The notes beneath the pieces were generated by a model. The model did not search any database and was not told the DNA's origin. It was given only the letters and a program-made list of their open reading frames with translations. Shown piece after piece: positions 9,736 through 44,215 of a stretch of 64,000 nucleotides of DNA. Numbering within the stretch: the stretch's first letter is position 1; every line of letters begins with the position of its first letter. The translations under genes and the position numbers were made by a program. The stretch comes from a virus (lineage: Duplodnaviria > Caudoviricetes), in IMG/VR virus record IMGVR_UViG_3300013383_000026, positions 21,954-85,953 of that record. One strand, 5' to 3'.

Positions 9736-9739
9736 TAAA

Positions 9740-10940: not shown

Positions 10941-10983
10941 ATAGGGAACATATACATCAATTAAGATAATATATGTTCCCTAT
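10941..10983. terminator. bidirectional intrinsic terminator between convergent blocks
   Basis: Perfect 14-bp inverted repeat ATAGGGAACATATA / TATATGTTCCCTAT, flanked by A and T tracts. Confidence 0.75.
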
Positions 10984-10988
10984 AATTA

Positions 10989-24654: not shown

Positions 24655-27600
24655 TCATGCTCTCGCATAGCTATATTGATATGCAAGATTCTTTAAGCCA
24701 TCTAAAAACTCACCAGCATTAGAAACGCCCGGCAATTCAAGCCGACCAATATCAAATGAATAATTAGTCACTACTGCTCGACCTATATTAGACAAAACAT
24801 CCTTAACATTGAGACTAGATAGCGCCATAAGATTCTTTGTTGCTTCAGCCGGAATTATACCATCACCATGCCCAATCACACGCATCTCAGGGCCATTTTC
24901 ACCAACTAAGGACAAGCCACCTCTGGCATTAGTTGTACCATGAGCATATTTGCCCGTTAACTGGTCAACTTCTCTTTGAGCCTTTGCTATGGCATCAAGA
25001 TTCTGAATATACTGGAAACGACCGCCAGTAAATGCCAATATCCTATTCTCTTTGGCTTTAGCTAAATCGCTTAATTTCTCTTCAAGTTGAATCTGCTCTT
25101 CGAGAGACTGATTTTGATACTTATATATCTCTTCTTCATGTTGCCAATAATCATCTTTAGCATCGGCAAGATTCTTTAAGTATCTTTCATTCATTATCTC
25201 TAAATCACGATAATATTGTGCTTCAGAGATAATATCCATATTCAGCCAGTGTTTCTTTTCTTTCAGCCATTCATCAAAATTCTTCTTTAAGTCCTCGCCA
25301 GAGCCGGGAAGCGCCGTAACACCAGAATAAGTCGGGTCATTTCGTCTATCAGGATATTTAGGATTATTCTTAGTACCATTAGCCATAGCCGGGATAGGAT
25401 TCTCAGCTACATCGTCAACTGTTAGCTTGCGATCTTTAAGAATATCTTGAGTTTGTCTCGCCGTATAAATCTTAGCACCTTTAGGTATTGGCTGAACGGT
25501 TTCTTTGCCGTCATTATAAATCTGCCCAACACCATTATGTACGACTAATTCGCCGGAGGAACCATTGACAGGCGCACCGTCATTTATTAATGCCAATCCA
25601 CCGGGAGCCGATTTGGCACCCTTGGCAAATTTATAAGCGCCCGTTTTTGTGTAGTTAACGGTAACATTTATTGTTTTATCGTGGAGCGAATTCAGTTCAT
25701 TCTTTACAAGATTAATAGCTTGTAAAGCATTAAAAGCATTACAAGAAACAGAAAATGATTTATCGCTAATATGATAGTTTTGTACTATCCTAAGAGACGT
25801 CATAGCTGAACTCGTATTGGCTCTAACATTGACAACAGGCTGGTAAGAAGTCAATGCTTGTGCTGTAGATTGAACAACTTGTAATTGTCCAGCAACCTCG
25901 ACAGCATTGGTTGTTATCTCAACATTAACACCAGCAATTATATTGTTGACTTCTTGAACAACCGAATTGATTTGGTCTTTAGCTGCGGATACATCAGCCT
26001 CAAGCGTTACTTTAACTGTTTTGCCGTTTACCTTATCTATCCAACTATCAATTTCTTGCAGAGCAGTAGCAAGTGCTTGACCCTCTTCTGCTGTAGTAAC
26101 AGTTATTTGCTTTTGTTCATCCTCAGTATCAAGAGAGTTTAATTTAGCATTAGCCTCATCCGCATTCGTCTCGACGTTAATGTTTTTATCGCTAAACTTG
26201 ATACCCTCGGCTTCTACCAATTTAGCTATAAAATCGTCTATATTACCGATTTTAGATAAATCAATAGCTCCGCTCTCTGCTAGACTCAGTAATGCCGTTT
26301 TTAGTCCCTCAACAGAAGTTATACCTAATTCAGAATTATTAACAAGTGCTTTAGCAACCTCTCCTATCGCACTTGAGCTATTCCTCATGTGGTCGGGGAA
26401 ATTAGCTAGAGCTTTGTCCACTGTTTCGACTGATTTATTGTATTCGTCTAATGCAGCTTGCCCATTTTTATAAGCTTCCAGAAGGCTATTGTAGCCTGAT
26501 AGCCAGCTCAACTCAGCATCGGACAATTTTTCACCAGTTTCTAACCTAGCTTCTAACCCATCGGCTATTGCCTTATTTGAATCTATATAGCTTTTTGCCA
26601 GATTTAGCTGTTCTTGTGTAGGCTTAACGCTTTTGCTTATGTTGTCAGCCAAATCTTGAAATGCCGACGAAGCATCCTCTAAACTGGTAGTGACATCTTC
26701 TATATGATAGCCATAATCATTTATCTCAGCTATCATTTCTTCGGTAGACTTAATAGTGCCATTCGCCTTAACCCACGAAAGTCCTAACGCATTAGCATAT
26801 TGCTCGGCAGCATCCGTCGCATCGTGAAATGTGCTAGGTAACTTTTCTAGGGCGGCTTGCTGGTCGGGAGGCAACTCCGCCCTTTTTATGCGGATTTTAT
26901 CTTCTGCAACGCCAAAAGACGTGGACGATGTATCTCTAGCCGTCACACCCATTTTAACGCCGTCTTTGGCAGCTTCTTGGTATGCTCCTATTGCCGCCTC
27001 AGTTTGCCTCTGTTTTTCGAGGTCTATAAGTTGCTCATAATATTCTATCTGGTCTTGAAGAACTTCTATTTCATGCTGTTGCTCACTTGTTCTATCGGCA
27101 TATGACGTATTATTCAATTCATCAAGCTTCTTCTTTGCATTATCTAAACTCTGCTGATATTCATCTGCCTTTTGTTTAGATTCGTCAAAGTCACCCATGA
27201 ATTTATCGAATTTGCCATCTGCATCTTTAATAGCCTTAACGATTAATATAATAGCCGCCGCGATCGCGCCAAGCCCTAGTGCAATTACTGTCCATTTAGC
27301 TCCGCCAGCTAATGCGGCAAACGCCTCGATGCCACTAGTAGCCGATTTAATAGTAGTAGCAATTTGTGCTATTTTGCTGATAAATTCACCAGCTATACCA
27401 GTAATGCCAGTAATCGCACCGCCAAATAATACCGCCTTGGCAACGGCTTGCCCCATATCGGTATTGGCAAATTCAAGTAATTTTGTGCCAGCGTCTAATA
27501 TCGACCCAATAAATTCTTTTGTAACAGTATTAGATGCAAAATTTTCATATGCGGCTTTAAGATTCTGTAATTTTGCCTCTATAGATTCCATATAAGAGGC

Positions 27601-30600
27601 GTTTTCATTCATTGCGGAATTTTGTGAATCATAGGCCGTATTAGTGGCATTTATAGCCGCTTGGAAGTTATTCATGACTGCGCCAAATACTTCAAACTGG
27701 TTCTTACCAGCATAAGCCAATGCTATAGACTGCTGTTCAGAACTTGACATATTATCCCAGTCGGATTTCAAATCCTTGAATATCTGGAATGTCGATTTCA
27801 TATCTCCCGTGGTTTCATCCATTAGAGATAAAGATTTTGTTACGCCGCCAACTTTATATTCAATTTCTCCTGCATCATTGGCGGCCGAAGCAAAGTTGTT
27901 ACCGATGGTTCTAAGCAATTAATTTCTCATATGTTTCCATATAAGTCAGACTATTTCTTCACCCTCAACATTACTTGTAGGGGCAACCCGTTTTGCTTTC
28001 GCTACTCTATAAAAGATAGTCGTTTGACACATCCCTATTCGGGACTTTGCGACCAAACACCCATTGCTACGATACTTAGGCTTTTGACCATATACCATCT
28101 CTATTGTTGTTTTACTTTCGTTACATTCATATTTGCATATTTCATCAAATATTGTAGTAATAGAGCTTTAGGGGTTACTGGTTTTAGGGTTGTGCTTAAA
28201 TGCACATTACTGTACATTGGGGGCTATAATTCCATCGTAATTATTGTTACCCTCGTGCAACTTTTGTGGCTTGTCCGGTCATAATTTCCGTGCCTGCCGT
28301 AACTACATTTGTTATTAATAGAAGGTCGTTAATCTTCTATGAATTGTATAATTTTTTCTTTATAAGTTTCGTCTTGTATATCTTTATAACTTATTCTTAA
28401 TAACGGGATATTCCATTGTTTGCAATACTCGTTTTTTATAATATCGTGCTTTTGTGTGGCTTCAAAAGTTTTTTGAGCAACTTCATTGCTAATTTGATTA
28501 AAATTACATGGCTTAAAATGTCCCTCTCCATCAACCTCTATTAGCCCCTGATTTTTCTCTATCCAGAAATCAAAAGGCAAAGGGATGACATCTTTACATG
28601 AATTTATTCTATATTGATAAATATATCTTATATTATTATCATCTAAGAATTGCTTAACAATTCTTTCGTATCTTGAGCTACTTTTTGCACATTTATCACA
28701 AGTTATTTTGCCCTGATAAAAAGAAGAAATTGATGTTGTAAATATATCGCCACATTGACATCGGCATTTTATACCTTGCCGCGTCCATTTTTTATCATCA
28801 CAAAAATCAATAACCTCGGATTTTATACCTCTGGTTCGGGCATAAAGATTAGCATTATAGATATAATTCTTTTTATTGGTTCTAACATCAAAAATAGCTA
28901 TTTGACGGCCTGATTTTAGTTTATTATAAGAAATAAAACCCTTATAACCATCCTTATCCTCGACCTCTAAATATTCATTTCTTAAAAAGAACTCTGGCTC
29001 ATTTAGAACTGTATATCCTTTAGCTCTAAAAAATTCCAATGTCTCCTGTTTGTCTTTACGATGTGATTTTCCGCGATTTTTTATAGCACATTTATTACAT
29101 TCAGAAACATATGTTAACGTTTGAAGATTATCCCACGTTTTATTAAACACATTTCCACATTTACATCGCATAGTTATTAGGACTCGTTTGTGCTTTGATT
29201 TGGTTATTATTTCTATGCTTAATATTTCAGCATTGGGGTCTTTCTTCTTTATAAATGTTTCTATATTTTCTTTCCAAAAAGGATTGGATAGAGAAAAGAA
29301 CCTTTTACTCGTAGACTTGCCTTGCTTATGCGTAATATCTACGACACTACACCAACTCTTCAACCCATCTTTTTCACAACAAATATTTTGCTGAGTATTT
29401 ATATATTCTTCTTCAGGTGTTAAAATATGATAGCCAAATTTATTCAATCTTTCCTTAATTTCTTCATAACTTAATTTATCCAATTATACAACTCCTCATA
29501 CCTTTCGTATAAGATTAGATTATATCTTACATTCTTTAATAGAATGTCAACCCATTTCCCCAAACTTTTGGGTATGCCACTAACGACAATGGACTTACTA
29601 ATCGTTGAACCTTCATCTAGTATCTATAGATGCTTGGCTGCTGATTGCCCAATCCTTATCTTTGTCACCATACCAAGTTCATTGCGCTTGCCGTTATAAT
29701 ATTTCTATTATAATTTGGTAGATAAGGCTCTAAGGGGTTCCCAGTCAATTAGGGTTGTTTTAATAGACCAAGTTTTAGCCTATGGTTTGTTCAAAATCAT
29801 TGCCCAAAACGCCCATTGCAGAGCTGGTTTTAGACAGAGCCGTAGCAACATCCGTAGACGAAACAGCAAAATTATTACTGACGGCATTGATACTATCTAT
29901 AATGTGAATCGCGTCCTCAGCAGGAATATTGAACGCCTTCATTTGAGATATTATAATCGCCGCACTATCACTTGCAGATATTGCATCATCAGCAACGTTC
30001 TGGTATAATGTTGCTACTTGTGCCAGAGTCGCGGAATCTTCATCATTGAATGAGTTTTTGCGAAATTCCAATAAATGTTCAGTAAGTTCGTTAAGCTTAC
30101 CAGCAGCACTACCCGCATCTTATAGTTTCCTACAAGTTCAGACTATATCTTTATCTATTAACAAATAGATATGGGGCGCTTCGATTTCACTTGAAACCTA
30201 CAGATATTATTTCAATCTTAGTCGTTGAACCTTCCAATAACTCAATATTGGCTTGGCTGCTGATTACCCAATTCTTACAATTATCACGCTTTGGTATGTA
30301 AGACTCTAAGGGTTTCCCAGCAATTCACCCCATTCATTATATATGTTGCCATATACTCAACCAAATTATTTAGTTGCTGCCTCAATCATTTCTGACTGAT
30401 TAATTAAGGCCAAAAATAATGTTCATCAAAAAATTCACCATACTGCTCAAGCCCCTCTTCCTCATCAGTTTTTATTTGAGTCCCAGAAGAAGTATGCTTA
30501 TTACTGTCATTTGTTTTGGGCTTTGTAACTAATGAATGTATAATACTTGCAAAAAATGTAATATACACAACCGGCACAATAATCACTACAACAATAATCA

Positions 30601-31837
30601 CCATAAACATATAATCAACCTCCTTTGGTTGATTCGACTATAACACATAATGAATCTTTTGTCAAGTAGTTTTCAATTACTTATCGACTATTTCTTCATC
30701 CCATAAATTGGTGGACTGCTCTGTATAGTCTGTTGACACATCCCTCATCAGGACTTCGCGCCCAATCTGCCCTTTTGTCCCGTTTATTATATAATATTCG
30801 TGACATAATACTTAGGTCTTTCGACCATATATCATCCTTGCCGTTTTATTGATTTCTCACCATGTAATTGCATGATTTTATATTATATGGAGAAAATCTA
30901 CGCATTTTTTACAGCGAGGTTATGTGTACTTCAACACATTTCTCCAACGACTTTTATACAAATTTACATATTTTCACACTTAGGCTTATCTCATCCTTAT
31001 GTTGTAGTGACAAGGCTCTTGAGGCTTTCAAGGGTTTAGGAGCTATTCTTCGTGCTGGTTTACCATCCCATCACGGCGGCTCAGAAAAGTTAACCGCTAC
31101 GTCCAACTTGCTTACCCATATCGGCAAGCTTTTTCGTATAATTATCTAACGACTTACCAGACAAGTCAGAGACTTTCTTAACGTTATATTCAGCACAGTT
31201 CGCTACACCATGCCCGTCTTATTGACCGCTTTATATCTCTATAAAGACTAGACTATATCTTCATCTTATTAAAGATGTCTGCCGCTGTCTTGCGCTTGCA
31301 AGCACTTAGTCGTTGAGCCTTCTTCATAATTATATCACATCGCCACATATAAATCAATATAATTTTAGAAGCTTGGTTGCTGATTGCCCATTATTATAAC
31401 ACTTAGGATTTAACCATATGTCATGCTCATACTTTTTTCTGCTTTCGCCACTATCACATCCATCATTTCTAATCATGCTGTAGTGTATAAGCCTTTAGGG
31501 GTTTCCAGCAATTCGACAGATATTTGTTCTATTATTTCACAATAATAGTGAGCTATTTTGTTAACTCTGTTTGTGCAGAATCTAACTTCTTTGTCTGTTC
31601 GGCCATACTAGTTATTGCTTTGGCACAGTTATCTAATATGAGTCTGTACTGTTGATAAGTTAAACCAGCGGCCTTGGCGCTTTCACTGGCCTTTTCTGTC
31701 GCTTCGCCCAGTTTCCCAACTTCTTCAGTACCACTCGCCTTAACCGTTAACTTGCTTTGCTTTTCTTGTAGTTTAGCATCAATCTCGCTAGTATCAAGGT
31801 CAACGCCAACTTTAATTTTCCATGCACTATTCGCCAA
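24655..31837 (-). CDS. tape-measure protein (TP901-type core), six exons, ~1331 aa when spliced
   Basis: Exons 31837-31564, 31181-31093, 30395-30372, 30068-29777, 28305-28250 and 27915-24655 sum to 3996 nt in one frame. Junction peptides TEFKKVSDL, GRSGSEMIEAATEFRKNSF, QTIGLVTAGTE, KVARGLRTIG. Confidence 0.85.
27916..28249 (-). mobile_element. group I intron 5 of tape-measure gene (ORF-less, atypical 5' junction)
   Basis: R TCAAACGACTAT and S AAGAAATAGTCTG (P7 GACUA/UAGUC). In-frame join is CGAGGG|TAAC...AATTG|CTTAGA. Confidence 0.8.
28306..29776 (-). mobile_element. group I intron 4 of tape-measure gene with homing endonuclease
   Basis: Canonical GGCT|AAAAC...AAATG|TAGTT; P1 AUAGGCU/GGUCUAU; R GTTCAACGATTAG, S AAGATATAATCT; ORF lies 3' of P7. 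Confidence 0.85.
28329..29483 (-). CDS. intron-encoded Vsr/PD-(D/E)xK-like (EDxHD-type) homing endonuclease
   Basis: Repeated CxC/CxxC modules plus C-terminal LPFDF...LIEVDGEGH...KHD...LLRI. Confidence 0.75.
   Translation of the reverse strand: MDKLSYEEIKERLNKFGYHILTPEEEYINTQQNICCEKDGLKSWCSVVDITHKQGKSTSKRFFSLSNPFWKENIETFIKKKDPNAEILSIEIITKSKHKRVLITMRCKCGNVFNKTWDNLQTLTYVSECNKCAIKNRGKSHRKDKQETLEFFRAKGYTVLNEPEFFLRNEYLEVEDKDGYKGFISYNKLKSGRQIAIFDVRTNKKNYIYNANLYARTRGIKSEVIDFCDDKKWTRQGIKCRCQCGDIFTTSISSFYQGKITCDKCAKSSSRYERIVKQFLDDNNIRYIYQYRINSCKDVIPLPFDFWIEKNQGLIEVDGEGHFKPCNFNQISNEVAQKTFEATQKHDIIKNEYCKQWNIPLLRISYKDIQDETYKEKIIQFIED
30069..30371 (-). mobile_element. group I intron 3 of tape-measure gene (ORF-less)
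   Basis: Canonical GCAACT|AAAT...TATTG|GAATTT; P1 CAACU/GGUUG; R GTTCAACGACTAA, S AAGATATAGTCTG. Confidence 0.85.
30404..30610 (-). CDS. intron-borne single-pass membrane protein (68 aa)
   Basis: Hydrophobic N-terminus MFMVIIVVVIIVPVVYITFFASIIHSLV, acidic tail; RBS AAAGGAGG; own promoter. Confidence 0.7.
   Translation of the reverse strand: MFMVIIVVVIIVPVVYITFFASIIHSLVTKPKTNDSNKHTSSGTQIKTDEEEGLEQYGEFFDEHYFWP
30637..30665 (-). promoter_or_regulatory. sigma-A-type promoter inside intron
   Basis: TTGACA-17 nt-TATAGT with extended TG. Confidence 0.7.
31182..31563 (-). mobile_element. group I intron 1 of tape-measure gene (ORF-less)
   Basis: Canonical GAGT|TAAC...TAACG|TTAAG; P1 GAGU/GCUC; R CTCAACGACTAA, S GAAGATATAGTCT. 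Confidence 0.85.
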
Positions 31838-31852
31838 TATCCATCACACTCC

Positions 31853-32386
31853 TTATTGTGATTTATTCTCTTGGCTACGTCTATATTTTACAATTTGACT
31901 ATAAGCTATAAGTATGCCCTCGGCAATATCATCATCATTTAATTTGCTTTTAGGCGAAACCCAATTAAGCTTAATGCCAAACTCATCATTCACCGTCTGT
32001 ACGGCTTTCTGTTTAAGTATATCTCTTTGTAATCCTTGTCGAGTACCATCATATAAGTCAAGCTCTTTTCGCCAATGAACGGGTAAAAGAAATATTGGTT
32101 TACAATTATATTGACTACATAAAGCCAATATCATACCTTGCATAGCGCCTAATTTTACCAATGTTGACGAGCCGGGCTTTAATGGCACATCTTCTACATA
32201 CGCCTTTATTGGGTGGTATTTGCGTATTATATCACCCAATGATGTTGCTTGTTCTTCTATACGTTCTCGCCAATCTTTATTCTTTGGCTTAATTTTGCCG
32301 TATGCTATAAGACCAGATTTATCAAATATACTATATCCAGTACAAGATGTAGATAAATCTAAGCCCATAATACAATTACTTCTCAT
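31853..32386 (-). CDS. RuvC-like Holliday junction resolvase
   Basis: MGLDLSTSCTGYSI, YVED, LGAMQG, DDIAEGI acidic catalytic motifs. Confidence 0.75.
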   Translation of the reverse strand: MRSNCIMGLDLSTSCTGYSIFDKSGLIAYGKIKPKNKDWRERIEEQATSLGDIIRKYHPIKAYVEDVPLKPGSSTLVKLGAMQGMILALCSQYNCKPIFLLPVHWRKELDLYDGTRQGLQRDILKQKAVQTVNDEFGIKLNWVSPKSKLNDDDIAEGILIAYSQIVKYRRSQENKSQ

Positions 32387-32884
32387 TTAATCCTCATGCG
32401 ATGTTTTAACCGGGTCGCCACTCGCTTTCTTTATAGGTAGTCCAGCCCGTTTCATACCACGCTGATATAATTCAACTATTTTATTTTTACTGAACCATTT
32501 ATCTGTTTTCCTCCATGCGTTACGCTTAGTTGGCCTATGAAACAAACCCGGCCCACTTTGATATATTAAATCTGCCATTTCATCAGCCATTGATTCTCCA
32601 TATATATCAGTGTGTTGCAAATCATCGGCATTAACAGATAAATTGCTTGGCTCAAAATAAAATTCGCCTTCAACTGATTTGCCAGATTTTGAGTGGTCTA
32701 TATCCCAAGCCAACTTAAAATCATCTGTGCGCTTATAAACATCGGGTGAATAAGCATCATAAACTGTTTTTTGCACTCGCTTTTCGTTCTCTATGAGCAA
32801 TTCGCCCATCATATAATTCATAGCTTGGTCAAGTCTATCAGTTGCGGCTTCGGATAATTCTTCATCGTTTTCAAACGTTGGCAT
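32387..32884 (-). CDS. hypothetical tail-region protein
   Basis: Context; VYDAYSPDVYKRT motif seen in HK97 gp10-like neck proteins (weak). Confidence 0.45.
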   Translation of the reverse strand: MPTFENDEELSEAATDRLDQAMNYMMGELLIENEKRVQKTVYDAYSPDVYKRTDDFKLAWDIDHSKSGKSVEGEFYFEPSNLSVNADDLQHTDIYGESMADEMADLIYQSGPGLFHRPTKRNAWRKTDKWFSKNKIVELYQRGMKRAGLPIKKASGDPVKTSHED

Positions 32885-33308
32885 TTCCGATAACGTCCTT
32901 AATGCCTATACCTTTAAGCTGTTCAAGTAATTCAGGTATATTTTGAGCTATATCAGCTATCATCCTAACAGGCGATTCATAATGCTTAATCGCGTCGTAA
33001 ATATCAGAGAAGTTAATTATATGCAACATAACTTCGCTATAAAGCCCACTACTTGCAACCATATCGGGGTCGAGTTCTTCAATCTTACTCTCGCCAATAT
33101 CAGTCGCATAGCACAGCACTTTATAGCAAATCATCTGCTCGCGCTCAAGCCAAGTGCCAAGATTAATCACGGTCTTAGCAATATCTTCAACTTGCGTCGG
33201 TGTTAAATAAGGATTAACTTTAACATCGTATTCTTCGAGATATACTTTCTTTGCTTTTAATTCCTTCATTTCCTTTTGTCTCCTTTTATTTCTCAAACTT
33301 GTAGCCAT
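32871..33308 (-). CDS. hypothetical protein, possible tail assembly chaperone
   Basis: Position between major tail and tape-measure genes. Confidence 0.45.
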   Translation of the reverse strand: MATSLRNKRRQKEMKELKAKKVYLEEYDVKVNPYLTPTQVEDIAKTVINLGTWLEREQMICYKVLCYATDIGESKIEELDPDMVASSGLYSEVMLHIINFSDIYDAIKHYESPVRMIADIAQNIPELLEQLKGIGIKDVIGNANV

Positions 33309-33591
33309 TCTTTATTTTCTTTACTTTTACATATTGAGGAATATCATCAAAGGGATTGTCATAAGGTCTAACAACTCCATCCATATTAATATATAGTTTT
33401 CCATGCCGAACAAATTCTACTTTAGTATAACCCTTCGGCACATCAATCATTTCATCGCTCATATACTTACATACCTCTTTGGCTCGGCTTATTTCTTTCC
33501 AACCCATTATCTTATCACACCAATACATAGCAATACATACATCATTTAATTTCTTGCATTTATTGCCATCATATCTATATTGACAACTCAT
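33286..33591 (-). CDS. Cys-containing hypothetical protein
   Basis: RBS and operon context. Confidence 0.5.
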   Translation of the reverse strand: MSCQYRYDGNKCKKLNDVCIAMYWCDKIMGWKEISRAKEVCKYMSDEMIDVPKGYTKVEFVRHGKLYINMDGVVRPYDNPFDDIPQYVKVKKIKNGYKFEK

Positions 33592-33608
33592 TATTATCTC
33601 CTTAAAAA

Positions 33609-33640
33609 ATAAGGAGGCTAGAATCGACTAACCTCCTTAT
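33609..33640 (-). terminator. intrinsic terminator after major tail gene
   Basis: ATAAGGAGG / CCTCCTTAT inverted repeat followed by a T tract on the minus strand. Confidence 0.65.
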
Positions 33641-33654
33641 AAATTAATTCTTAT

Positions 33655-36389
33655 TTAACCGACAGTAACAGTCGCATATGCAACTATATCGGCATAGCCG
33701 GTAAGCGTTGCAGAAATAACAGTATCTCCATCAGTAGCGCTCGCCGTAATCTCACCAGTACTAGCATCAACAGTCGCGGACGAACCAGACTGCACTGCAA
33801 AAGTAAGGTTGCTGTTGTCAATACGCGCAGAAGCGACAGAGCCGCCATAAACCGCACGAACAATCAGAGTCTCCTTAGCGCCCTGAGCAAGCTCAATGTC
33901 TGCATTCTCAATGGCAAGAGCAACAACATCATCTTTCCAGTTCGCGCCAAAAATTTCCTCAGTTATAGTGCCGTAGTACGGGTCCTCCTCGCAACTATCG
34001 CCAGCTTCAACACCAAGGGCATTGCCAGTCAGAGAAACAGTGGCAGCAGAAGTTGCAGTTAAATTAAGGTCTTGATTCTAATATGTTCACATAAGTTCGC
34101 TACGCTTATGCAGTTCTCTTATGAACTTCTTATGCTTTCACATAAGTACAGACTATATCTTCATCTTGTTTATTCATATCTATATACACAATGCTGTGAT
34201 TATGAACCAAATAATCAACAGCTCTTTTTATAGTATCTTCATCGGGCAATTCATCATATTTATTGCCCTTAATTCTTAGTATCTTATATCCTTGTTTTAA
34301 TACACACCCATTGCGCCGATTATCATATAACTCTCTCTTATTATGGTAATATGCACCGTCATATTCAACATCTATTAAAATATTATCCGCTTTTAACAAG
34401 CAGTCAAAATTAACTCTATCTAATGGATATGCAGGAATACAATTATCTTCGCCATATAATCTTGCCAATATGTCACATAACTTTCGTTCGGGCTTAGAAG
34501 TTGGAGCTGTGCCGTGCTCGTAAAAAGATTGCGTCACTTTTCGCATTATCTCATCAGACTGCAATGCATGTTTAACGCCATATTTCTCAAGCATTGTTTG
34601 TTTGCCACGTTCCCTAACTTCTTTAGCTTGTAAAGTATATTCTACGCCGTACTTATCTAAACTTTTTTGCCTCTTTTTATCCTTAACAGCTTCTATTTGA
34701 GACATATTGTCCACGCCATAACGTTCCTGCATGGTAGATTTATGTTTATGCCATTGGCATGAATCACAGGCCAGTAAACCAGTTTTTATGCTATGTAAAT
34801 ATAACTTATACATTAACTTATATGGCCCACCACAATAATCACAAATACAATTCACCATTACATGACTTCCACTGGTTAAATCTTTAGCTTTAGCTTCAAA
34901 CTCATCGCCCATTTTAGTAAAACGATAGCCTCTTTTGACATAATGAGATTTTATCTTAGAATTCCATTTAACTAAAACAAGCTGATTTTCATCAAACATT
35001 TATTCACTTCTTCTTGGTTCAAATTTATAAAATAAACAAGAGCAGTATTTTTCGACTACGCTAGTAGCCTACTCTCCCCTAAGGAGATAGTCGTTGGGGG
35101 TTCTCCATGTATATTATATTATATAGCTTAATATAAGTCAATAATATATTTAGGAGCTTCCTTGCTAAACACCCATTGTAAATAACACTTAGGACGTATA
35201 TTATTATAAATATACGCTTTTATTTCACCATATGTCATCCCACGATTTTTTCTGCTTTCGCACCATTCAGCATATTGTTTCCAATTACTGTTTAGGTTGT
35301 GGGCTTTAGGGATTAAAAGCATTTAACACTGAATCTGCACCAATCACTTGATACAGAGGGCAAATCACCCGTCCAGCTGGAAAGAGGGAATATCAGTAAT
35401 CAGACGTCCATACTTACTTGCATTCGCAACATCCTTAGTATCACCAGAAAACAGGTCATTAAGAATAACAACATGAAGCGTCTTAGGCACATACTGAGTA
35501 TTGATAGTAATGTGACGCGCATTCAGATTCTGATAGAAATACTTAATGCAATAGCTGTCACCGGCCTGATAGTTAGGAATAGTAATCTTATTGCCAACAA
35601 TATTTGCAATGGTCCAATAGTTATCAGAGGGTTTCTTATACCAACCAATAATGGAGCCATTAAATGCAACAGCAGTATTAGTAAGCGTAATTACGCCACC
35701 AGTGCCAATCGTCTCGCCCTGAGCCGGGGACTCATAGACAGAAAGTCCACCCTGTTCAATATCAACACCAAGATTCGCTGCGACATATTCAAGCTTGAAC
35801 ATTGCGTCCGTGAGCGTAATTGCGAGATTGCTATCATGGAAATGCTTGCCAAACAGCGCATTACCGCTACCGCCACGAATCTCTTCATTGGCTATACTAA
35901 AATTAAAGGTGCTCTCAGTTAAGGTCTTTGCATAATTTTCACATAAGTTCGTTAGGCTTATGCCGTTTATTCGAGCAAAATAAACTGCTCATGCCTTCAC
36001 ATGAGATAAGACTATATGTTCTTCTTATTTGTTCATATAAGAAGTGGATTTTTCAGGGCACTTGCCCCTACTCCCTCGCAAAGGGATAGTCGTTGAGCGT
36101 TTCCCTTATCTTTATAGACTTAGGGATTTCGTTGCTGAAGACCCATTGTATAGATACTTAGGATTTAACCATATATCCATCTTACAACTTTTTTCTACTT
36201 TCGTAACCATTCAGCTTGTCATTTCTAACTACTGTTTAGGTATGTAAGCTTTAGGGATTGCCAGCATTTAACCCAAAGTACACACTTTTCACAAAATGTG
36301 CATGGCCATTATTTTACCACACCTATAAGATTATTAGAATCGAAGAGGAGTGCGCGACCGACACCCGCCAGAAAATGATTCTGAGCCAT
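33655..36389 (-). CDS. major tail protein with C-terminal Ig-like domain, three exons, ~352 aa spliced
   Basis: Exons 36389-36317 (MAQNHFLAGVGRALLFDSNNLIGV), 35930-35368 and 34077-33655 (NQDLNLTATSAATVSLTGNAL...VTVG*) total 1059 nt. Exons 1 and 3 are absent from the ORF track. Confidence 0.8.
34130..34999 (-). CDS. intron-encoded Vsr/EDxHD-like homing endonuclease
   Basis: CDYCG and CDSC zinc motifs, EKYGV repeats, DVEYDGAYYH...DNRR...GYKILRI. Confidence 0.75.
   Translation of the reverse strand: MFDENQLVLVKWNSKIKSHYVKRGYRFTKMGDEFEAKAKDLTSGSHVMVNCICDYCGGPYKLMYKLYLHSIKTGLLACDSCQWHKHKSTMQERYGVDNMSQIEAVKDKKRQKSLDKYGVEYTLQAKEVRERGKQTMLEKYGVKHALQSDEIMRKVTQSFYEHGTAPTSKPERKLCDILARLYGEDNCIPAYPLDRVNFDCLLKADNILIDVEYDGAYYHNKRELYDNRRNGCVLKQGYKILRIKGNKYDELPDEDTIKRAVDYLVHNHSIVYIDMNKQDEDIVCTYVKA
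35113..35141 (-). promoter_or_regulatory. sigma-A-type promoter inside intron upstream of the endonuclease
   Basis: TTGACT-17 nt-TATAAT. Confidence 0.55.
35931..36316 (-). mobile_element. group I intron 1 of major tail gene (ORF-less, atypical 5' junction)
   Basis: R CTCAACGACTATC, S ACATATAGTCTT; in-frame join GGTGTGG|TAAAA...TTATG|CAAAG. Confidence 0.8.
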
Positions 36390-36391
36390 TT

Positions 36392-37252
36392 TTATCCTCC
36401 TATAAATTTATCGAATTGTGAGGTTAATTCCCCACTATTATTTGTTTTGGACATAGTATGTATCATACCATCCCCACCCATAGATTTATTATAACTTTCA
36501 ACAGATGTAATATAATCGTCATACTTGCCTTTAGATTTCTTAAATATCCACTGAACATTATCAGCTTTGCCAGCATACATAGCTAACGGTTTAGTAACCA
36601 TATATTCAACTTCGCCAGACGCCTCAGAGAATAATAAGCTATGATAACGTAACGTCATAGCTAATTGTTCTGTTTTAGTTAATCCAGTATGGGCTGAAAT
36701 AATAGCCATGCGCCGTTCAAGATTAGGTGGATTAATGCCCTTAGCTTTTAATTCATCATATTCAGCCATATTCGCCTTTAATTCAGGATTGACATATTCA
36801 TCATCAAAATTAGGCAAATTCTGATAAAGAACTATTCGCTTTATATCATCAAATTCTTTAGCCGTTATAATCAGGTCTAATTTATATTCATTAGTATCTG
36901 TATCACGAACCGCATTAACTAATAAAGCGCGTCCTTTATCATCATAATCTAAATATGGCAGTTCAAAGCCAAGACATAATAGACATATATTTACTAATTG
37001 CTGCTTAGTGGCATTGTCTATTAATATCTTTTCTTTAAGAAATTTAAGATATGACATTTGGATTATTTCTACATCTGTACTAAGATTTTTATCTATATCT
37101 AAAATTCCATAACTTGTCATAAAAATCATGGAATCTTCAAGTTTAACAGGATTTATGTATAATGTTTTGCCGCATTTGAGCGGATAAGGAACTGGTTTAT
37201 CGAATGTAAAATAGGCTTCATTAAGAAAACCAATATCAACCGCCACATCCAA
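36392..37252 (-). CDS. hypothetical neck/tail-region protein
   Basis: Operon context only. Confidence 0.5.
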   Translation of the reverse strand: MDVAVDIGFLNEAYFTFDKPVPYPLKCGKTLYINPVKLEDSMIFMTSYGILDIDKNLSTDVEIIQMSYLKFLKEKILIDNATKQQLVNICLLCLGFELPYLDYDDKGRALLVNAVRDTDTNEYKLDLIITAKEFDDIKRIVLYQNLPNFDDEYVNPELKANMAEYDELKAKGINPPNLERRMAIISAHTGLTKTEQLAMTLRYHSLLFSEASGEVEYMVTKPLAMYAGKADNVQWIFKKSKGKYDDYITSVESYNKSMGGDGMIHTMSKTNNSGELTSQFDKFIGG

Positions 37253-37805
37253 CCTCCGTGCCAGAATCGCCCATTTGCGTACTTAACCACATTTGTACTC
37301 CTGTGAATGTTTTACTATTACCAATAACACTATGAGCCGCATCATATCTTGCTTGGTCATCATTAAATATTAATTTGCCTACGCCGCCGATATAAACACC
37401 ATTAAGAGTATTTAATATCTCATGGATAAACAGCGTCCCACGATTAGTAGGAATACCATTATAATCAATCAGCGCCATAGTACCGCCATATAAGAAATCA
37501 AATTCATATACAGCCGTAGATAGATATTCACTCGGACTTGCATAAACATGATAATTATATAGCTTAAATATACACTTGCTTTCACATATAGCATCCTCGA
37601 CTAAATTAGTTAAAAACACGCCATACTTTTCTTGAGTACCAGTTTTCCATAAGAAATCTAACTTTTCACCTATGGTTAAATTCGGCTTGCTCAATGCATC
37701 GTAGCCATTATATTTAAGCATCTTCCATATATTCTCATTATTAACCACAAGATATTCAAGTATCTTATATAAGCTAGTGGGTAAAGCAGATAAGCTATTA
37801 TACAT
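37236..37805 (-). CDS. putative tail terminator/completion protein
   Basis: Position upstream of the major tail gene. Confidence 0.4.
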   Translation of the reverse strand: MYNSLSALPTSLYKILEYLVVNNENIWKMLKYNGYDALSKPNLTIGEKLDFLWKTGTQEKYGVFLTNLVEDAICESKCIFKLYNYHVYASPSEYLSTAVYEFDFLYGGTMALIDYNGIPTNRGTLFIHEILNTLNGVYIGGVGKLIFNDDQARYDAAHSVIGNSKTFTGVQMWLSTQMGDSGTEVGCGG

Positions 37806-37808
37806 ACA

Positions 37809-39083
37809 TTAACCTCCTAACATACTTGTAACAGTTATAGATTTAGTTTCAGTGTATACTATATCGCCGTTATCATCTTTGACTTCAATACTATATTCAA
37901 CCGGCATAGAGCTAATCTTAACACCAGTAAATTTATATGTATTTATACCAATAGATATAATAGATATATTATCACTATTGACATTTATTCCGACTGTTAT
38001 GTTATCTTGTTTGACATTATTTCTATAGAGAGCATATGTTACATCAATAGACTCATATTGTTTAATAATAGATATTTCAGGTTCAGCATTTATACTCCAT
38101 GCATCAGCCGAAGTCTCTACAACTTCAACAGTGCATTGAGCATTAACATCGGGATTGCCTTTAAGATATGCTGTAATAGTGGCTTTATCCCCCACATCGC
38201 CAATAATAATATAAGAACCATCATCAGTAATATTTATTACAGTGTTATCATAATCCCATACTATATCTCGGCTCACTTCATTGCCGTTCAACAAAACAGT
38301 AGTATTAATTTGACCAGTCGCGCCTTTAATCGCTTGAATATCATCACCTATGGCAATCGAATATTCATACGTACCGTTATCAGCCACACCAGTTACAATA
38401 TCATCACCATCATGTAATTCATCGAGATATAATTCTAAATATAATAATGTATCGTGTTGTAATGTTAAATCATGTTCAACGGCGTTTTGATAACCCAACA
38501 GCTTAAACGGTCTCCCAGATAGCATATATCTAGTATTCGTCTTAAATAATCTTAATGTATCTTCATTGCCCTGAACCATTACTGTTGCATGATTGCTCGG
38601 TGTATTGATATATCTTGACACTTTAAGACTGCTTGCCGCCATATCATAATTAACTACACATGGTATGCTAAATATAGCCCCATTATCGGGGTCAATTATT
38701 TTTAACCGATTATTACATCTTCTTATACCACATGATTGAACAACTCCATCCCACGGCGTATAGCTATGTACTATCCAATAATTATTCTCAAATTTGTACA
38801 TTAATCCCCACATAGTAGTGTGATTAATATCTCTGAAAACAATCTTATTGAAGTCATAAGGCTGCTTGAGTCCAGTCGTGGTATCAGCAATAGTAGAATC
38901 GATCCATACCTCAAGGCACTTATATTCATTACTGCCAAGCCCTTGCTGTTCTTGTACAGTAACTAAAACCGAAGTATTGTCCCATTGTTCTAATACATAT
39001 TGTTGCTGTTGTTCACGATACATTTCATCGGGCATAGGCTGTGCTTCATTGATTATAGCATTATCAAAAAACTTAAATGCCAT
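37809..39083 (-). CDS. putative head-completion protein with Ig-like C-terminus
   Basis: GIRRCNNRLK motif and beta-rich C-terminal half; neck context. Confidence 0.45.
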   Translation of the reverse strand: MAFKFFDNAIINEAQPMPDEMYREQQQQYVLEQWDNTSVLVTVQEQQGLGSNEYKCLEVWIDSTIADTTTGLKQPYDFNKIVFRDINHTTMWGLMYKFENNYWIVHSYTPWDGVVQSCGIRRCNNRLKIIDPDNGAIFSIPCVVNYDMAASSLKVSRYINTPSNHATVMVQGNEDTLRLFKTNTRYMLSGRPFKLLGYQNAVEHDLTLQHDTLLYLELYLDELHDGDDIVTGVADNGTYEYSIAIGDDIQAIKGATGQINTTVLLNGNEVSRDIVWDYDNTVINITDDGSYIIIGDVGDKATITAYLKGNPDVNAQCTVEVVETSADAWSINAEPEISIIKQYESIDVTYALYRNNVKQDNITVGINVNSDNISIISIGINTYKFTGVKISSMPVEYSIEVKDDNGDIVYTETKSITVTSMLGG

Positions 39084-39367
39084 TAATCACCAGTCCCTTC
39101 CAGCCTATTAATGCTATCAATAAGCCCGAATACGACCGATTTAACCTGTTGATGTGTAGCCTCTCGACCTAATATATATAGACCCTTAATAGAATTATAT
39201 ATCTCATATTGCCCTGAACCTAGCCAATGAATATACATTCTATCTAAGTAGCCTAAATAACTATCAAGATTAACAGGTGAATCAGCCTTATCTATATCCT
39301 CATAAAGCCCTAAAATTTTATAAATTGCATTAATGTCTTGAATTTTACCCATCTTACTACCTCTCAA
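39083..39367 (-). CDS. hypothetical protein
   Basis: Coupled stops and starts with both neighbours. Confidence 0.5.
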   Translation of the reverse strand: MRGSKMGKIQDINAIYKILGLYEDIDKADSPVNLDSYLGYLDRMYIHWLGSGQYEIYNSIKGLYILGREATHQQVKSVVFGLIDSINRLEGTGD

Positions 39368-39792
39368 TAATAAGATGATATATCTTCAAGCTGATATGCT
39401 CTTATTTGTCTATCAACTTCTTCTCGCATTTTATCGGCATATACCGAATTTTCTTTCAAATTCTGAGCCTCGCTATGATTCTTGAATGAGCCGCTATTCT
39501 GTAGATGTATTCTATATAGAGCGTATGTCTGATTATCTTTTAGATACCAATGGACAGCCCATAAGTAAGCTAATATCTTTTGCTCTGTTTGCGTTAAATC
39601 TGATTCAAATGTACGCGTCTCAGTATCATAAGCAAGGTCTTGCCGACAATCCTTAAAATCTTGAACAGCTCTTATTAAAAAGCCATCACAATATCGCTTG
39701 AAGCCGTCAATATCTTTATCATATAATTTCCGTAAACGATAATCGTTTACGTCTATTAGGGCTAAATCTATCACCGAATCAAACTCGGTCAT
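39364..39792 (-). CDS. putative head-tail adaptor
   Basis: FESDLTQTEQKILAYL...FKNHSEAQNL; position after the capsid gene. Confidence 0.45.
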   Translation of the reverse strand: MTEFDSVIDLALIDVNDYRLRKLYDKDIDGFKRYCDGFLIRAVQDFKDCRQDLAYDTETRTFESDLTQTEQKILAYLWAVHWYLKDNQTYALYRIHLQNSGSFKNHSEAQNLKENSVYADKMREEVDRQIRAYQLEDISSYY

Positions 39793-39805
39793 GGTTTATC
39801 ACCCC

Positions 39806-40465
39806 TTAATTTTCCATTTGTTCTATGTTAATTAAATCCTTGCCGCAAAGCTTGCCAAGTTGCATAAGTATATTTGCATCAACAAGTTGACCATTAATAA
39901 GCCGCCCAGAAATCATATTAATAATAATATCCTTCTGTTCATCATTTGCATTACGATATATCTCACATACATCAGTCGCATTCCGACTAAGTAACTTCTC
40001 AAGGTCAGTATTGCTCAGTAAATCAGCATAAACATCATCAAGCTCACATTCCTCAACAAAGTCGTGGTCAGCTATATAAAGTAAGCCACTAGAAACCGAC
40101 TTAGGCATGTTATTAACAACAATCTTAGCCTCAGTCTCAGAAAGCAACTTATAATCAAATTGCTTATCGAGATGATACATTCGAGTACCGCGAATAGTAA
40201 AGCCACCAGCCGTCATATTAATAAACTTAATATTGCGCTTAGTCGGCTTAGTCCCGGACAGTTCACGTGCAGGTATATTAGCCTGAGCTTGCATCATAAG
40301 CTTCATTTGAGCCATAAGCTCATCCATCTTCTGTTGCTGTTCAGCTAATTGTGCCTTCAACTGTTCTTTTTCTGCGTCAACCGCGATTACATTAATATTC
40401 TTATCAACCTCATCAATAACTTGTGATGTTACCTTTGCGCCAGAATTTTTCGGGGGTCTACCCAT
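39806..40465 (-). CDS. hypothetical protein with coiled coil
   Basis: RBS AAGGAG; context after the capsid terminator. Confidence 0.55.
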   Translation of the reverse strand: MGRPPKNSGAKVTSQVIDEVDKNINVIAVDAEKEQLKAQLAEQQQKMDELMAQMKLMMQAQANIPARELSGTKPTKRNIKFINMTAGGFTIRGTRMYHLDKQFDYKLLSETEAKIVVNNMPKSVSSGLLYIADHDFVEECELDDVYADLLSNTDLEKLLSRNATDVCEIYRNANDEQKDIIINMISGRLINGQLVDANILMQLGKLCGKDLINIEQMEN

Positions 40466-40506
40466 ATCTATATTATCTCCTTTTTAATTCCTTTAATTCA
40501 AAAATA

Positions 40507-40533
40507 AGCAGAGAGCCTATATTGACTCTCTGC
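40507..40533 (-). terminator. intrinsic terminator after major capsid gene
   Basis: GCAGAGAG / CTCTCTGC inverted repeat followed by a T tract on the minus strand. Confidence 0.6.
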
Positions 40534-40554
40534 TATATGTGTGTTGTTATTTAA

Positions 40555-42853
40555 TTACTCAGTAATCGAATAAACCCCAGCGAAACTCGCCCCGATAAAT
40601 TCGAACGAGTAGCCCTTGCGCATCGTGAAATTCTGCGAGATGTCAGCGTTCTCATAGAAATCGTTAGAGTTCGTGAGAGCAGTGGACATAACACCAGCAA
40701 CCGGCTTATTAACAGCAGCGCTAACGACATACAGCTTAGTATCGTCAAGGGCAAGACCAAAATCAGCAGAGCCGGTAGGAGCCTGAGGCAGCTCGTACAT
40801 GGGGAAGCCGTAGAAATCCTTAACGTAAGTCACAACAGGCTCACGACCATCAATAACCAGACGTCCACCAAGAGCACTATCGGGAAGAACGTTCATAAGA
40901 GCCGCAGCAGTACCCATGATAACGGGCTTTGCCATCATGTTGTAAGCCTGAACGCGCTGAGCAAGCTGAACAAGCTTCTTGCCGTCAAATGCGCCGGACT
41001 CAACAAACTGAGTGGGATAAGTGGAAGCGCCAAGACCAGTGGTCAGAGCAGCCATAACTTCCTTATTCATATCAATCTCAATAGAGACAACGATAGCGCG
41101 AACAGCCTCAGCAAGGTCATCCTTGCCAGCGAGAACACGAGCCATATCAACATAAGTAGTAATGATGTGCTCAATGGGGCTGAGAACGATGTTGCCAGCG
41201 TACTTGCGCTGTCTAAACGAAGTGCGCTCACCTCTTGCACGTTGTGTTCACATAGATTCGCAATATCTATGCCGTCTTGTAGAGCGCTAAACAAGACTGC
41301 TCATACTTTCATATGAGACCAGATTATTTCTTCATCTTATATATCTAATTCTAATTCAGTATAAGAATGATTACCCCTGACTAAATAATCAATCTTTTCT
41401 TTTATTTGCGTTTGTGTGGGGATGGCCCTTCTACTTTTTATCCTTAATACTTTATAACCTTGAGATTTAACATATTCGTCTCTGCGTCTGTCCTTTTGCA
41501 TATCTCTATGCCAATAAGAACCATCATATTCTACATCGACTTTAACTCCATCAATATCCATAACACAATCCAACAAAGCATCGCCACAAGGCACATTCAT
41601 ATCACAATTACCATAAATGTTAGGTAACATTAAAGCAACTTCTATTTGTTGAGATGAGGTTGGGCAAGTTCCATGTTGATAATAACTATTTAATATTTTC
41701 TCTCTTACTTGTTTTGACGCTAAATGTTTTTTACATCCAAATTTTTCTATACAAGTATTTTCATACTTCTGTGTAAATTCTGGATATTGCAAAGCATGAG
41801 CAACGCCATATATATCTAACATAGAATCTTCCATTTTCTTACTCCAACAATTTTTACAGCAATCCTTACCTTTATGGTAATATTGATGTTTGTATTGTTG
41901 CCTATATGTATTGCCACAATAATCACATATTACATCTACATACTTTTCACTGCCTTTAGTTAAATCTTTCGCTTTAACTAAAAAGACATCAAACAATTTA
42001 GTGAATTTATATCCAAGAGATTCATACCTCTTCCTATTTCGTGCGACCCATTGCATTTCTACTAATTGAATGTTATCAAACATATCCTCATCTCCTTTCT
42101 CTATTATACTATATTTAATTATAAATGTCAAGTTTAGAATATATAAGAGCCATATTTTTCGACCGTCATTAGCTTACGGCCTACTCCTCCATCAGAGGAT
42201 AATCGTTGAACCTATCCCTATTCGGAATGTGGATGCTAAATACCCATTTACATTTACTTAGGATTTAACCATATAAATATCTCTTATGCTTTTTTATACT
42301 TTCGTAGCATATCACGCTTAAGCATATTTCATCTTTACGTTGTAGCGATAAGAGCTTTAGGGATTCAAAGCAGTTAACATGGGATGTTTGCCAGTCACCC
42401 GACAAACAGGGCGGTTGGTTGCCATTAAGCGGCAATCTTGTTACCCTTAGAAACAGTGTAAAGAGTCTTGGGCGGAATCTTGAGATTCACAACATCAGCA
42501 TAACCGACAGTACGAAAATCAACAAAGGGAGCAAAAGTAGCCTGAACATAGCCGGGCAGAACAACATTAACAGCTGCGTTAATAACAGCAAAAGTAGCAA
42601 ATCTAGTCATAGGATTTGCCATCCACATATCCTTGTTCTCGGCAGTCATCTTGCAGCCAGAGAGACGCTCAACCTCAGCAAAGAAAGCATCGCGAACCTT
42701 GCTGGACTTCACAGACAGAGAAACATTGTGGTCATAAGCACCCATCTTGGAATTCCATTCCTCAGCCGCCTTATGATTATGGTAATCGGCAAATGCCTCA
42801 TAAAAATCAGTGTTGCCATTCGCAAACTGAATGATTTCTTCAGATATAACCAT
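40555..42853 (-). CDS. major capsid protein, two exons, ~364 aa spliced
   Basis: Exons 42853-42444 and 41239-40555 (1095 nt); junction LYTVSKGARGERTSFRQRKY; biased high-expression codon usage; follows protease and decoration genes. Confidence 0.8.
41337..42083 (-). CDS. intron-encoded Vsr/EDxHD-like homing endonuclease, paralog of 34130..34999
   Basis: Start moved to ATG 42083 (RBS AAAGGAG); MFDNIQLV..W, CDYCG, DVEYDGSYWH...DRRR...GYKVLRI. Confidence 0.75.
   Translation of the reverse strand: MFDNIQLVEMQWVARNRKRYESLGYKFTKLFDVFLVKAKDLTKGSEKYVDVICDYCGNTYRQQYKHQYYHKGKDCCKNCWSKKMEDSMLDIYGVAHALQYPEFTQKYENTCIEKFGCKKHLASKQVREKILNSYYQHGTCPTSSQQIEVALMLPNIYGNCDMNVPCGDALLDCVMDIDGVKVDVEYDGSYWHRDMQKDRRRDEYVKSQGYKVLRIKSRRAIPTQTQIKEKIDYLVRGNHSYTELELDI
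42103..42131 (-). promoter_or_regulatory. consensus sigma-A promoter inside capsid intron
   Basis: TTGACA-17 nt-TATAAT directly upstream of the endonuclease RBS. Confidence 0.75.
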
Positions 42854-43409: not shown

Positions 43410-44198
43410 TTATTCTTTTATTATAATCTTATACATTTGTTTGAAGTCCCTTCTCAGACCTCTTTTAATATAATCTTCGCGCATATTATATCTACCATAA
43501 AACCAACCATTAACCGTGTCTACGGGAATGTTTTCTTGTCTGCAAAATTCACAAACCGATGGATATTCTTTGTCATCGCAAAGCACCCATTTTCTTTTAG
43601 AGAGAATTTCTTGATATTCTACAACTACTCCCAGTGGATGTAATTGTTTGTCAACAAATTCTTTCGGCACGTAACCTATACCTCTAAACCAATTATTCAT
43701 AGTTCCGGGCGATATTCCATAATAGTCCGCGCAATCTTTAATTGAACGAAACAGCTTTCCCCCACAAACTATTTTTCTCGCCTTAGGAGGATTGGGATTC
43801 TCAGCTCTGCGCCTCATTACCTCATTGCTCATAATTCGCCCTTTATTCTTTTCAGATATTTTATCTAATGCTTCTTGCGGTAAAATATTGGTTTCACCAC
43901 CGGCACAAACGTTATATCCAAATAAAGGGTTGTTAGAATTATATTTAGCAATCAATTCTTGCTCTAAAACGCACGCTTCATCAATAGTTAATTTCTCAGC
44001 TACTATAGTATGCTCAAATGCGTTCCAACCATATTTCTGGATTGAAGCATAAAAATGCTTATTGTTATAATAGCCATTACCAGCGCGTCCCCATCTTTCT
44101 TTGGGGTCTACCTTACTAGTAATGCCTACATACCTTTTATTGTTCACAATATTTCTATGAACATATACACAATAAAATGCGCTATCTGTTTTAATCAT
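43410..44198 (-). CDS. free-standing GIY-YIG homing endonuclease
   Basis: CVYVHRNIVNNKRYVGITS...E...GYN; two C-terminal NUMOD/HTH-like repeats; start moved to ATG 44198. Confidence 0.8.
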   Translation of the reverse strand: MIKTDSAFYCVYVHRNIVNNKRYVGITSKVDPKERWGRAGNGYYNNKHFYASIQKYGWNAFEHTIVAEKLTIDEACVLEQELIAKYNSNNPLFGYNVCAGGETNILPQEALDKISEKNKGRIMSNEVMRRRAENPNPPKARKIVCGGKLFRSIKDCADYYGISPGTMNNWFRGIGYVPKEFVDKQLHPLGVVVEYQEILSKRKWVLCDDKEYPSVCEFCRQENIPVDTVNGWFYGRYNMREDYIKRGLRRDFKQMYKIIIKE

Positions 44199-44215
44199 AA
44201 ACATCCTCCTTAATA

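What the first reader, a model, noticed from the sequence alone, without database searches (positions are those of the whole stretch)
27916..42443. Four group I introns whose junctions are systematically one nucleotide off the canonical rule
Seen in sequence: seven introns here follow U|intron...G|, with the exon-terminal U in the P1 U.G wobble. Four do not: capsid (TCTAAGGG|TAAC...CAACG|TGCA), major tail 1 (GGTGTGG|TAAA...TTATG|CAAAG), major tail 2 (GACGGG|TGAT...ATTAG|AATCAA) and tape measure 5 (CGAGGG|TAAC...AATTG|CTTAGA). In each, P1 (e.g. GGGU/GCCC, GUGUGGU/GCCAUGC) still puts the U.G pair at the U after GG, and the terminal G sits at the same place after P9 as in the canonical introns. 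Cutting after that U and joining after omega-G leaves one extra base and frameshifts an essential virion gene. Established knowledge: the U.G pair defines the 5' splice site of group I introns. Inference: this subfamily cleaves 5' of the wobble U (exon ends in G), or uses a 3' site one base past omega-G, or needs a +1 recoding step. Four independent cases in three genes argue against a sequencing slip.
Basis: partly seen in the sequence, partly recalled or inferred. Interest (0 to 1): 0.9.

Follow-up and report, generated by a model that had tools for sequence, protein, structure and literature searches.

The report
Phage introns that splice after G
Four self-splicing introns in this phage's capsid and tail genes must be cut one base before the usual U marker, right after a G; this rare habit was shown in 2014 for transposon-linked introns, and here it appears in a widespread phage intron lineage together with two RNA-structure changes that may explain it.

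Summary
Observation confirmed. The capsid, major-tail 1 and 2, and tape-measure 5 introns (minus strand) match intron-less homologs only when joined G|U...G|. Homolog residues favour the 5' shift over a 3' shift (A/G not V, N/S/A not Y, L not F). The same junctions recur in independent genomes, so this is not an assembly slip. It is not unprecedented: group B (IS607) IStrons splice after G, shown by RT-PCR for BcISt1 (PMC4227781), and this scan noted it before on other genomes (e1-1935150, e1-5656567). Not found in the papers I searched: (1) a P1-P2 'ruler': the guide base 13 nt before the L2 GNRA loop is G in 27/28 ordinary introns and all three Twort orf142 introns, but C in 60/62 introns of this type, putting a G-C pair at the cut site and U.G at +1; (2) the wobble-receptor A (Tetrahymena A207, Twort A83) is U; (3) about 15 insertion sites, and cultured phages (Remus, SEP1, ECP3, PMBT8) carry this type, mostly without a transposon. 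No RNA data exist for this phage, and CboIStron splices after G with an intact receptor. New variant of a known kind.

The parts
42444..42853 (-). major capsid protein exon 1 (ends ...AAG GG)
   Evidence: relative annotated as major capsid in Enterocloster phage PMBT24
41240..42443 (-). capsid group I intron, 1204 nt, G|U...G|; IGS G 42412 (pairs +1 U), IGS C 42411 (pairs exon G), L2 GUGA 42398-42395, J5/4 UAU with U 42240 at the A207 position
41337..42131 (-). intron-encoded homing-endonuclease-like ORF (DUF7487 + DUF559), not TnpB
40555..41239 (-). major capsid protein exon 2
36317..36389 (-). major tail protein exon 1 (ends ...GTG G)
35931..36316 (-). major tail intron 1, 386 nt, ORF-less, G|U...G|; IGS C 36305, L2 GUGA 36292-36289, J5/4 UCU (U 36139)
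35368..35930 (-). major tail protein exon 2 (ends ...GAC GGG)
34078..35367 (-). major tail intron 2, 1290 nt, G|U...G|; IGS C 35360, L2 GUGA 35347-35344, J5/4 UGU (U 35169)
34130..34999 (-). intron-encoded homing-endonuclease-like ORF (DUF7487 + DUF559)
33655..34077 (-). major tail protein exon 3
31564..31837 (-). tape measure exon 1; followed by canonical intron 1 (31563-31182; J5/4 CAA; IGS G 13 nt before L2), an internal control
30396..31092 (-). tape measure intron 2, canonical junction (exon 2 = 31181-31093)
30069..30371 (-). tape measure intron 3, canonical (exon 3 = 30395-30372, 24 nt; J5/4 UAA; IGS G 13 nt before L2)
28306..29776 (-). tape measure intron 4, canonical, with HNH-like ORF 29483-28329 (exon 4 = 30068-29777)
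28250..28305 (-). tape measure exon 5, 56 nt (ends ...CGA GGG)
27916..28249 (-). tape measure intron 5, 334 nt, ORF-less, G|U...G|; IGS C 28223, L2 GUAA 28210-28207, J5/4 UGU (U 28057)
24655..27915 (-). tape measure exon 6

Best explanation
These are ordinary two-step group I (IA2-like) introns whose 5' splice site is the phosphodiester 3' of an exon G paired Watson-Crick with a C of the internal guide sequence. The U.G wobble sits one pair further out, at intron position +1. The intron still ends at omega-G, so G|exon-2 is ligated and the protein is in frame. Shown by comparison: intron boundaries, the G-C pair at -1, the constant 13-nt distance from the guide base paired with the last exon base to the L2 GNRA loop, and U in place of the A207-equivalent receptor base. 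Inferred: P1 stacks on P2 and L2 docks on the core, so this distance rather than the wobble fixes which bond reaches the active site. A one-base register change moved U.G out, and the J4/5-J5/4 receptor, no longer contacting a wobble G amine, changed A to U. The retained guide G probably pairs first with the +1 U and then with the first base of exon 2 (C or U in 30/38) to start P10.
For: Homolog residues at informative sites all fit the 5' shift: tail 1 A16/G3 vs V0; tail 2 N13/A10/S8/G2 vs Y0; tape measure L11/A1 vs F0; in relatives R/K vs C, A vs V (two sites; one of 49 homologs has V at TD|A), D vs V. Combined test (5' site chosen by the ruler among homolog-plausible cuts, intron length from homologs): U-type introns have G-C at -1 in 37/38 and end in G in 35/38, the 3 exceptions being slides in G runs or a two-intron span; A-type have U.G in 9/10 and end in G in 10/10. 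Homolog-free ruler: base 13 nt before L2 is G in 27/28 A-type and C in 60/62 U-type, and G in all three Twort orf142 introns, where the J5/4 A is nt 83, matching the published A83 = A207 (PMC1891724). The +1 U.G is not obligatory: L036 has A at +1 at the same tape-measure site, and 8 U-type introns have A at -14. Precedent: BcISt1 ligated exons lack the U and the full-length circle contains it (PMC4227781). A BcISt1-like Bacillus IStron (L256) has the same U-type J5/4 and C at -13.
Against: The capsid junction alone cannot separate 5' from 3' shift, because the base after omega-G is U. The receptor change is not necessary for splicing after G: the c-st/CboIStron element, A. noterae and L133 begin GG|UAAC yet keep CAA in J5/4, with a P2 pentaloop and G 13 nt before it. 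The core tree is weakly resolved.
Confidence: 0.88

Rival explanations
1. Canonical 5' cut after the wobble U, with a 3' splice site one base past omega-G, so the intron ends in G-N.
For: Keeps the textbook U.G rule. It cannot be excluded for the capsid junction (same product). Introns with a non-G last base are known (Coxiella Cbu.L1917 and Lactobacillus phage LL-H terL, from memory; LL-H has an ordinary receptor and ends near ...CAUUA).
Against: It would need terminal U, C, A and C in the four introns, each preceded by G. It gives V, Y and F where homologs almost never have them. Relatives with A at +1 (L036) have no U to cut after. BcISt1 RT-PCR shows the U is intronic.
Confidence: 0.05
2. 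Canonical splicing leaves one extra base, and the frame is restored by ribosomal frameshifting or editing.
For: Only that U.G and omega-G both exist in canonical-looking places.
Against: It would require efficient recoding in the capsid and major tail proteins at about 15 unrelated sites with no shared slippery motif. The published BcISt1 and CboIStron products are scarless.
Confidence: 0.02
3. The cut is after G as proposed, but the J5/4 A-to-U change and the 13-nt distance are lineage marks; site choice is set by something else, such as the internal loop next to the U.G (the suggestion of Tourasse 2014).
For: CboIStron-type elements splice after G with an intact CAA receptor. The U label is clustered on the tree (4 changes vs 40.6 shuffled), so it could be inherited rather than causal. 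In U-type introns the U.G usually closes P1 next to a loop.
Against: The 13-nt distance holds across both types and in Twort, with the paired base switching exactly with the junction class. A207 is the base known to contact the wobble G.
Confidence: 0.3
4. Assembly or sequencing error adding one base at each junction.
For: The record is a metagenomic virus contig and no reads were examined.
Against: The same junction class appears in more than 30 other introns from independent genomes and in cultured phages Remus, SEP1 and ECP3.
Confidence: 0.01

Closest known systems
Group B (IS607-family) IStron ribozymes: BcISt1 of Bacillus cereus, CbISt/CboIStron of Clostridium botulinum (Tourasse et al. 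2014, PMC4227781; PMC10690162)
   Same: IA2-like core; 5' exon ends in G (GG); intron starts with U; U.G shifted by one pair and followed by a loop. A BcISt1-like element (L256) shares the U-type J5/4 and C at -13, and falls among the U-type phage introns in the tree.
   Different: The window's introns carry no TnpA or TnpB, do not end in CGG, and sit at fixed conserved sites in virion genes. Two encode DUF559-type homing nucleases and two are ORF-less. CboIStron keeps the ordinary receptor.
Turicibacter group IA2 intron with a GGAGG site (noted in PMC4227781)
   Same: A non-IStron intron with a GG-ending site.
   Different: A single bacterial case, not analysed for structure. Here a large phage lineage at about 15 sites.
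Phage Twort orf142 introns I1-I3 (IA2; crystal structure of I2)
   Same: Multiple introns in one virion gene; same P1-P2-L2 GNRA layout; same 13-nt distance.
   Different: U.G at the splice site and A83 intact; canonical junctions.
Introns with a non-G 3' end (Lactobacillus phage LL-H terL; Coxiella Cbu.L1917)
   Same: Break one of the two end rules.
   Different: The exception is at the 3' end, and LL-H has the ordinary CAA receptor. Their published status is recalled from memory.

Membership tests
Group I intron (IA2-like) | Conserved P3-P9 core with P4-P6, P7 G-binding site and J8/7 | tested here: met
   RF00028 hits for tail 1 (E 2.9e-9), TM5 (1.4e-5) and tail 2 (3' part, 0.021), all below the gathering score; R and S elements found in all four
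Group I intron (IA2-like) | P1 between 5' exon and internal guide sequence | tested here: met
Group I intron (IA2-like) | Terminal omega-G | tested here: met
   G at 41240, 35931, 34078, 27916 under homolog-fixed intron lengths
Group I intron (IA2-like) | U.G wobble at the 5' splice site (near-universal; exceptions published) | tested here: not met
   G-C at -1, U.G at +1
Group I intron (IA2-like) | A-rich J4/5-J5/4 wobble receptor (A207/A83) | tested here: not met
   J5/4 is UAU, UCU, UGU, UGU versus CAA/UAA in the canonical neighbours and Twort
Group I intron (IA2-like) | GTP-dependent self-splicing | not testable with these tools
Group B IStron | 5' exon ends in GG, U.G shifted by one pair | tested here: met
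Group B IStron | IS607 TnpA and/or TnpB inside the intron | tested here: not met
   ORFs are DUF7487/DUF559 homing-nuclease-like or absent
Group B IStron | 3' end CGG | tested here: not met
   ends are ACG, AUG, UAG, UUG
Group B IStron | Long AU-rich terminal inverted repeat | not tested
   no inverted-repeat search was run on the 3' ends
Group B IStron | Scattered insertions in unrelated genes | tested here: not met
   orthologous introns recur at the same conserved virion-gene sites

The most novel reading that the evidence does not exclude
A natural, widespread lineage of group I ribozymes has a rebuilt 5' splice-site recognition module: a Watson-Crick pair (G-C, occasionally C-G) replaces the wobble, the P1-P2-L2 ruler alone sets the register, and the A207 receptor is replaced by U. 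It may also have supplied the ribozyme of at least some group B IStrons, since a G-ending splice site matches the GG core that IS607 transposases need.
Probability: 0.55. Interest if true: 0.72.

Novelty: new variant of a known kind. Interest (0 to 1): 0.55.

Why it matters
The U.G wobble and its A-minor receptor are textbook determinants of group I splice-site choice. Tourasse et al. 2014 showed an exception in IStrons and left its cause open. This set gives a specific, cheaply testable answer (register set by the P1-P2 ruler, receptor A to U) with small ORF-less natural examples (334 and 386 nt) and cultured phages that carry the type (Enterococcus ECP3, Staphylococcus Remus, SEP1, PMBT8). 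A ribozyme that cuts after G would widen the target range for trans-splicing and scarless RNA circularisation, which normally need a U. It also matters for annotation: applying the U|...G rule to these introns frameshifts capsid, portal and tail genes, and the ECP3 and Remus records leave such genes truncated or unjoined.

Tried and rejected
The Twort 1999 and Romulus/Remus papers were not held. The Bastillevirinae, B. cereus intron survey, Cluster J and 2026 IStron mutagenesis papers showed no G-ending junction or receptor analysis in the passages retrieved. Literature searches for the ruler or receptor change returned nothing relevant, but the library lacks most subscription papers, including Michel and Westhof 1990. 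A missed canonical U|...G| pair was enumerated and rejected. The LL-H terL intron was checked as a possible same case and rejected (ordinary receptor, 3'-end exception). The first core finder was too noisy and was replaced. Three junction calls were discarded as wrong or spanning two introns (L120, L097 second core, L068). A single origin of the U-type could not be shown: 4 changes on a 174-column tree, at least 2 forced by supported branches; no AU test run.
Full report
Setting. The window lies in an 85,953-nt virus record, 97% complete. It is a tailed phage with an RdRP-like (YonO-type) polymerase, many gut-phage relatives in IMG/VR and distant cultured relatives infecting Enterocloster bolteae (38% capsid identity). 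The virion genes are on the minus strand. Eleven group I introns are present: five in tape measure, two in major tail, one in capsid, one in terminase and two in the polymerase.

Checking the observation. Joining after the U and after omega-G frameshifts. Joining G|...G| gives open capsid (364 aa), major tail (352 aa) and tape measure (1331 aa) frames that align gap-free across each junction to 11-38 distinct intron-less homolog segments. Every in-frame canonical alternative within 30 nt scores at least 12 units lower. The same junctions occur in other genomes (L012 and L026 for capsid; L064, L078, L111 and L241 for tail 1).

5' shift or 3' shift. The capsid site is uninformative. At the other three, homologs have A/G (never V), N/A/S/G (never Y) and L/A (never F). 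Four further sites in relatives agree: LLG|R not C, TD|A not V (1 of 49 homologs has V), W|A not V, FG|D not V. The base after omega-G varies (U16, C14, A4, G4), which is not what a 3' end marker looks like. An orthologous tape-measure intron (L036) has A at +1, so there is no U to cut after.

A structural correlate in the core. In the four introns the J5/4 strand reads UAU, UCU, UGU, UGU, against CAA or UAA in tape-measure introns 1, 3, 4 and the terminase intron. Counting in Twort orf142-I2 puts the last A of CAA at nt 83, the A83 that PMC1891724 equates with Tetrahymena A207, whose 2'-OH contacts the wobble G amine. So the base that reads the wobble is U in all four. I collected further introns with patterns for each J5/4 type, reduced them to 134 distinct candidate cores and called junctions from intron-less homologs. 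U-type introns gave G|, and A-type gave U| (one C|, L153).

A ruler. In introns with a GNRA-capped P2, the guide base 13 nt before the loop is G in 27/28 A-type (the exception is a mis-picked hairpin) and C in 60/62 U-type; the base at -14 in U-type is G51, A8, U3. All three Twort orf142 introns have G at 13. The search patterns did not include P1 or P2, so this is independent of the selection, though not of ancestry. Using the ruler to choose the 5' site among homolog-plausible cuts and homologs for the length, U-type introns have G-C at -1 in 37/38 and end in G in 35/38; A-type have U.G in 9/10 and end in G in 10/10. In the window the count is 13 to the guide C for all four shifted introns and 13 to the guide G for tape-measure introns 1 and 3. 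That a fixed P1-P2 length to the L2 GNRA loop helps define the splice site in IA introns is, from my own knowledge, an old proposal (Michel and Westhof 1990). I found no paper applying it to G-ending junctions. The resolved U-type introns occupy about 15 distinct insertion sites. The type is also in cultured phages: ECP3 tail tube (CAG|UGAG...CUG|UUC), Remus portal and tail lysin, SEP1 tail lysin and several PMBT8 introns (PMBT8 by receptor and ruler only).

Mechanism. Shown by comparison: boundaries, G-C at -1, U.G at +1, the 13-nt distance, and U at the A207 position. Inferred: P1-P2 docks through L2, presenting the bond after the G-C pair to exogenous GTP; exon 1 ending in G then attacks after omega-G. 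The guide G at -14 pairs with the +1 U in step 1 and likely with the first base of exon 2 in P10 (pyrimidine in 30/38). A one-base register change followed by loss of the receptor A is the simplest history, but the order is not shown.

Comparison with what is known. The c-st phage hit led to IStrons. Tourasse et al. 2014 (PMC4227781) report that group B IStrons have G as last exon base, a U.G shifted by one pair, and RT-PCR and circle-junction proof for BcISt1. They mention a non-IStron Turicibacter intron with a GG site and pose the cause as an open question. The splice-after-G habit is therefore known. A Bacillus IStron with AGGG site, truncated TnpA and TnpB (L256, BcISt1-like by those features) has the U-type J5/4 and C at -13, tying the proven case to this lineage. 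The window's introns work like group B IStron ribozymes but are not IStrons: no TnpA or TnpB, no CGG end, fixed sites. Earlier scan notes reached the same reading on other genomes. I found none mentioning the receptor change; a look-up for the ruler did not run.

Limits. There is no RNA evidence for this genome. CboIStron, the A. noterae element and L133 start GG|UAAC but keep CAA and have a P2 pentaloop with G at 13, so the receptor change is not required and the ruler needs the loop type taken into account. L032 pairs an exon C with G, and L179 likely does too. With the receptor columns masked, the U label needs 4 changes on the tree against 40.6 for shuffles, but support is weak and a single origin is not shown.

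Verdict.

Noticed in passing
window 30372-30395 and 28250-28305 (-): Tape measure gene has six exons, including 24-nt and 56-nt micro-exons between adjacent introns; exon skipping as in Twort is possible.
   Followed up: partly
window 30404-30610 (-): 68-aa hydrophobic ORF with no Pfam match inside tape-measure intron 2, where a nuclease would usually sit; this intron has an unusual J5/4 (CAGA) with a canonical junction.
   Followed up: no
window 54500-58556 (-): RdRP-like (YonO-type) polymerase gene split by two group I introns of a different structural type, one with a DUF2726 nuclease-like ORF (56505-57458).
   Followed up: partly
window about 51180-51475 (-): ORF-less terminase intron with canonical AGU|...AAG| junction and UAA receptor, missed by Rfam.
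   Followed up: partly
window 43410-44204 (-): Free-standing GIY-YIG endonuclease upstream of the capsid cluster.
   Followed up: no
L032 about 18710 (+) and L179 (-): U-type introns with G at -13; in L032 the exon ends in C paired with that G (C-G at the splice site), one base upstream of the TM5 site.
   Followed up: partly
L116:3551-4480 (Enterococcus phage ECP3); L114 about 9160-11100 and 16370-16810 (Remus): Cultured phages with G|U introns that are not annotated as introns; the ECP3 tail tube is annotated 130 aa against 142 aa in phage K because the last exon is missed. The Remus portal intron contains an IS605 OrfB (TnpB) gene.
   Followed up: partly
L249:7700-11750 (Staphylococcus phage PMBT8): Six group I intron cores in about 4 kb of the tail region, four of U-type, not annotated.
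   Followed up: partly
L045, L046, L050, L236, L242: IStron-like elements (GG|UAAC start; L045 is 1897 nt and ends CGG) with U-type receptor; two of them nest among A-type cores in the tree, hinting at domain recombination or a second origin.
   Followed up: partly
L068 (also L017, L023, L025): Two introns back to back in the major tail gene with a very short exon between them, the first U-type.
   Followed up: no
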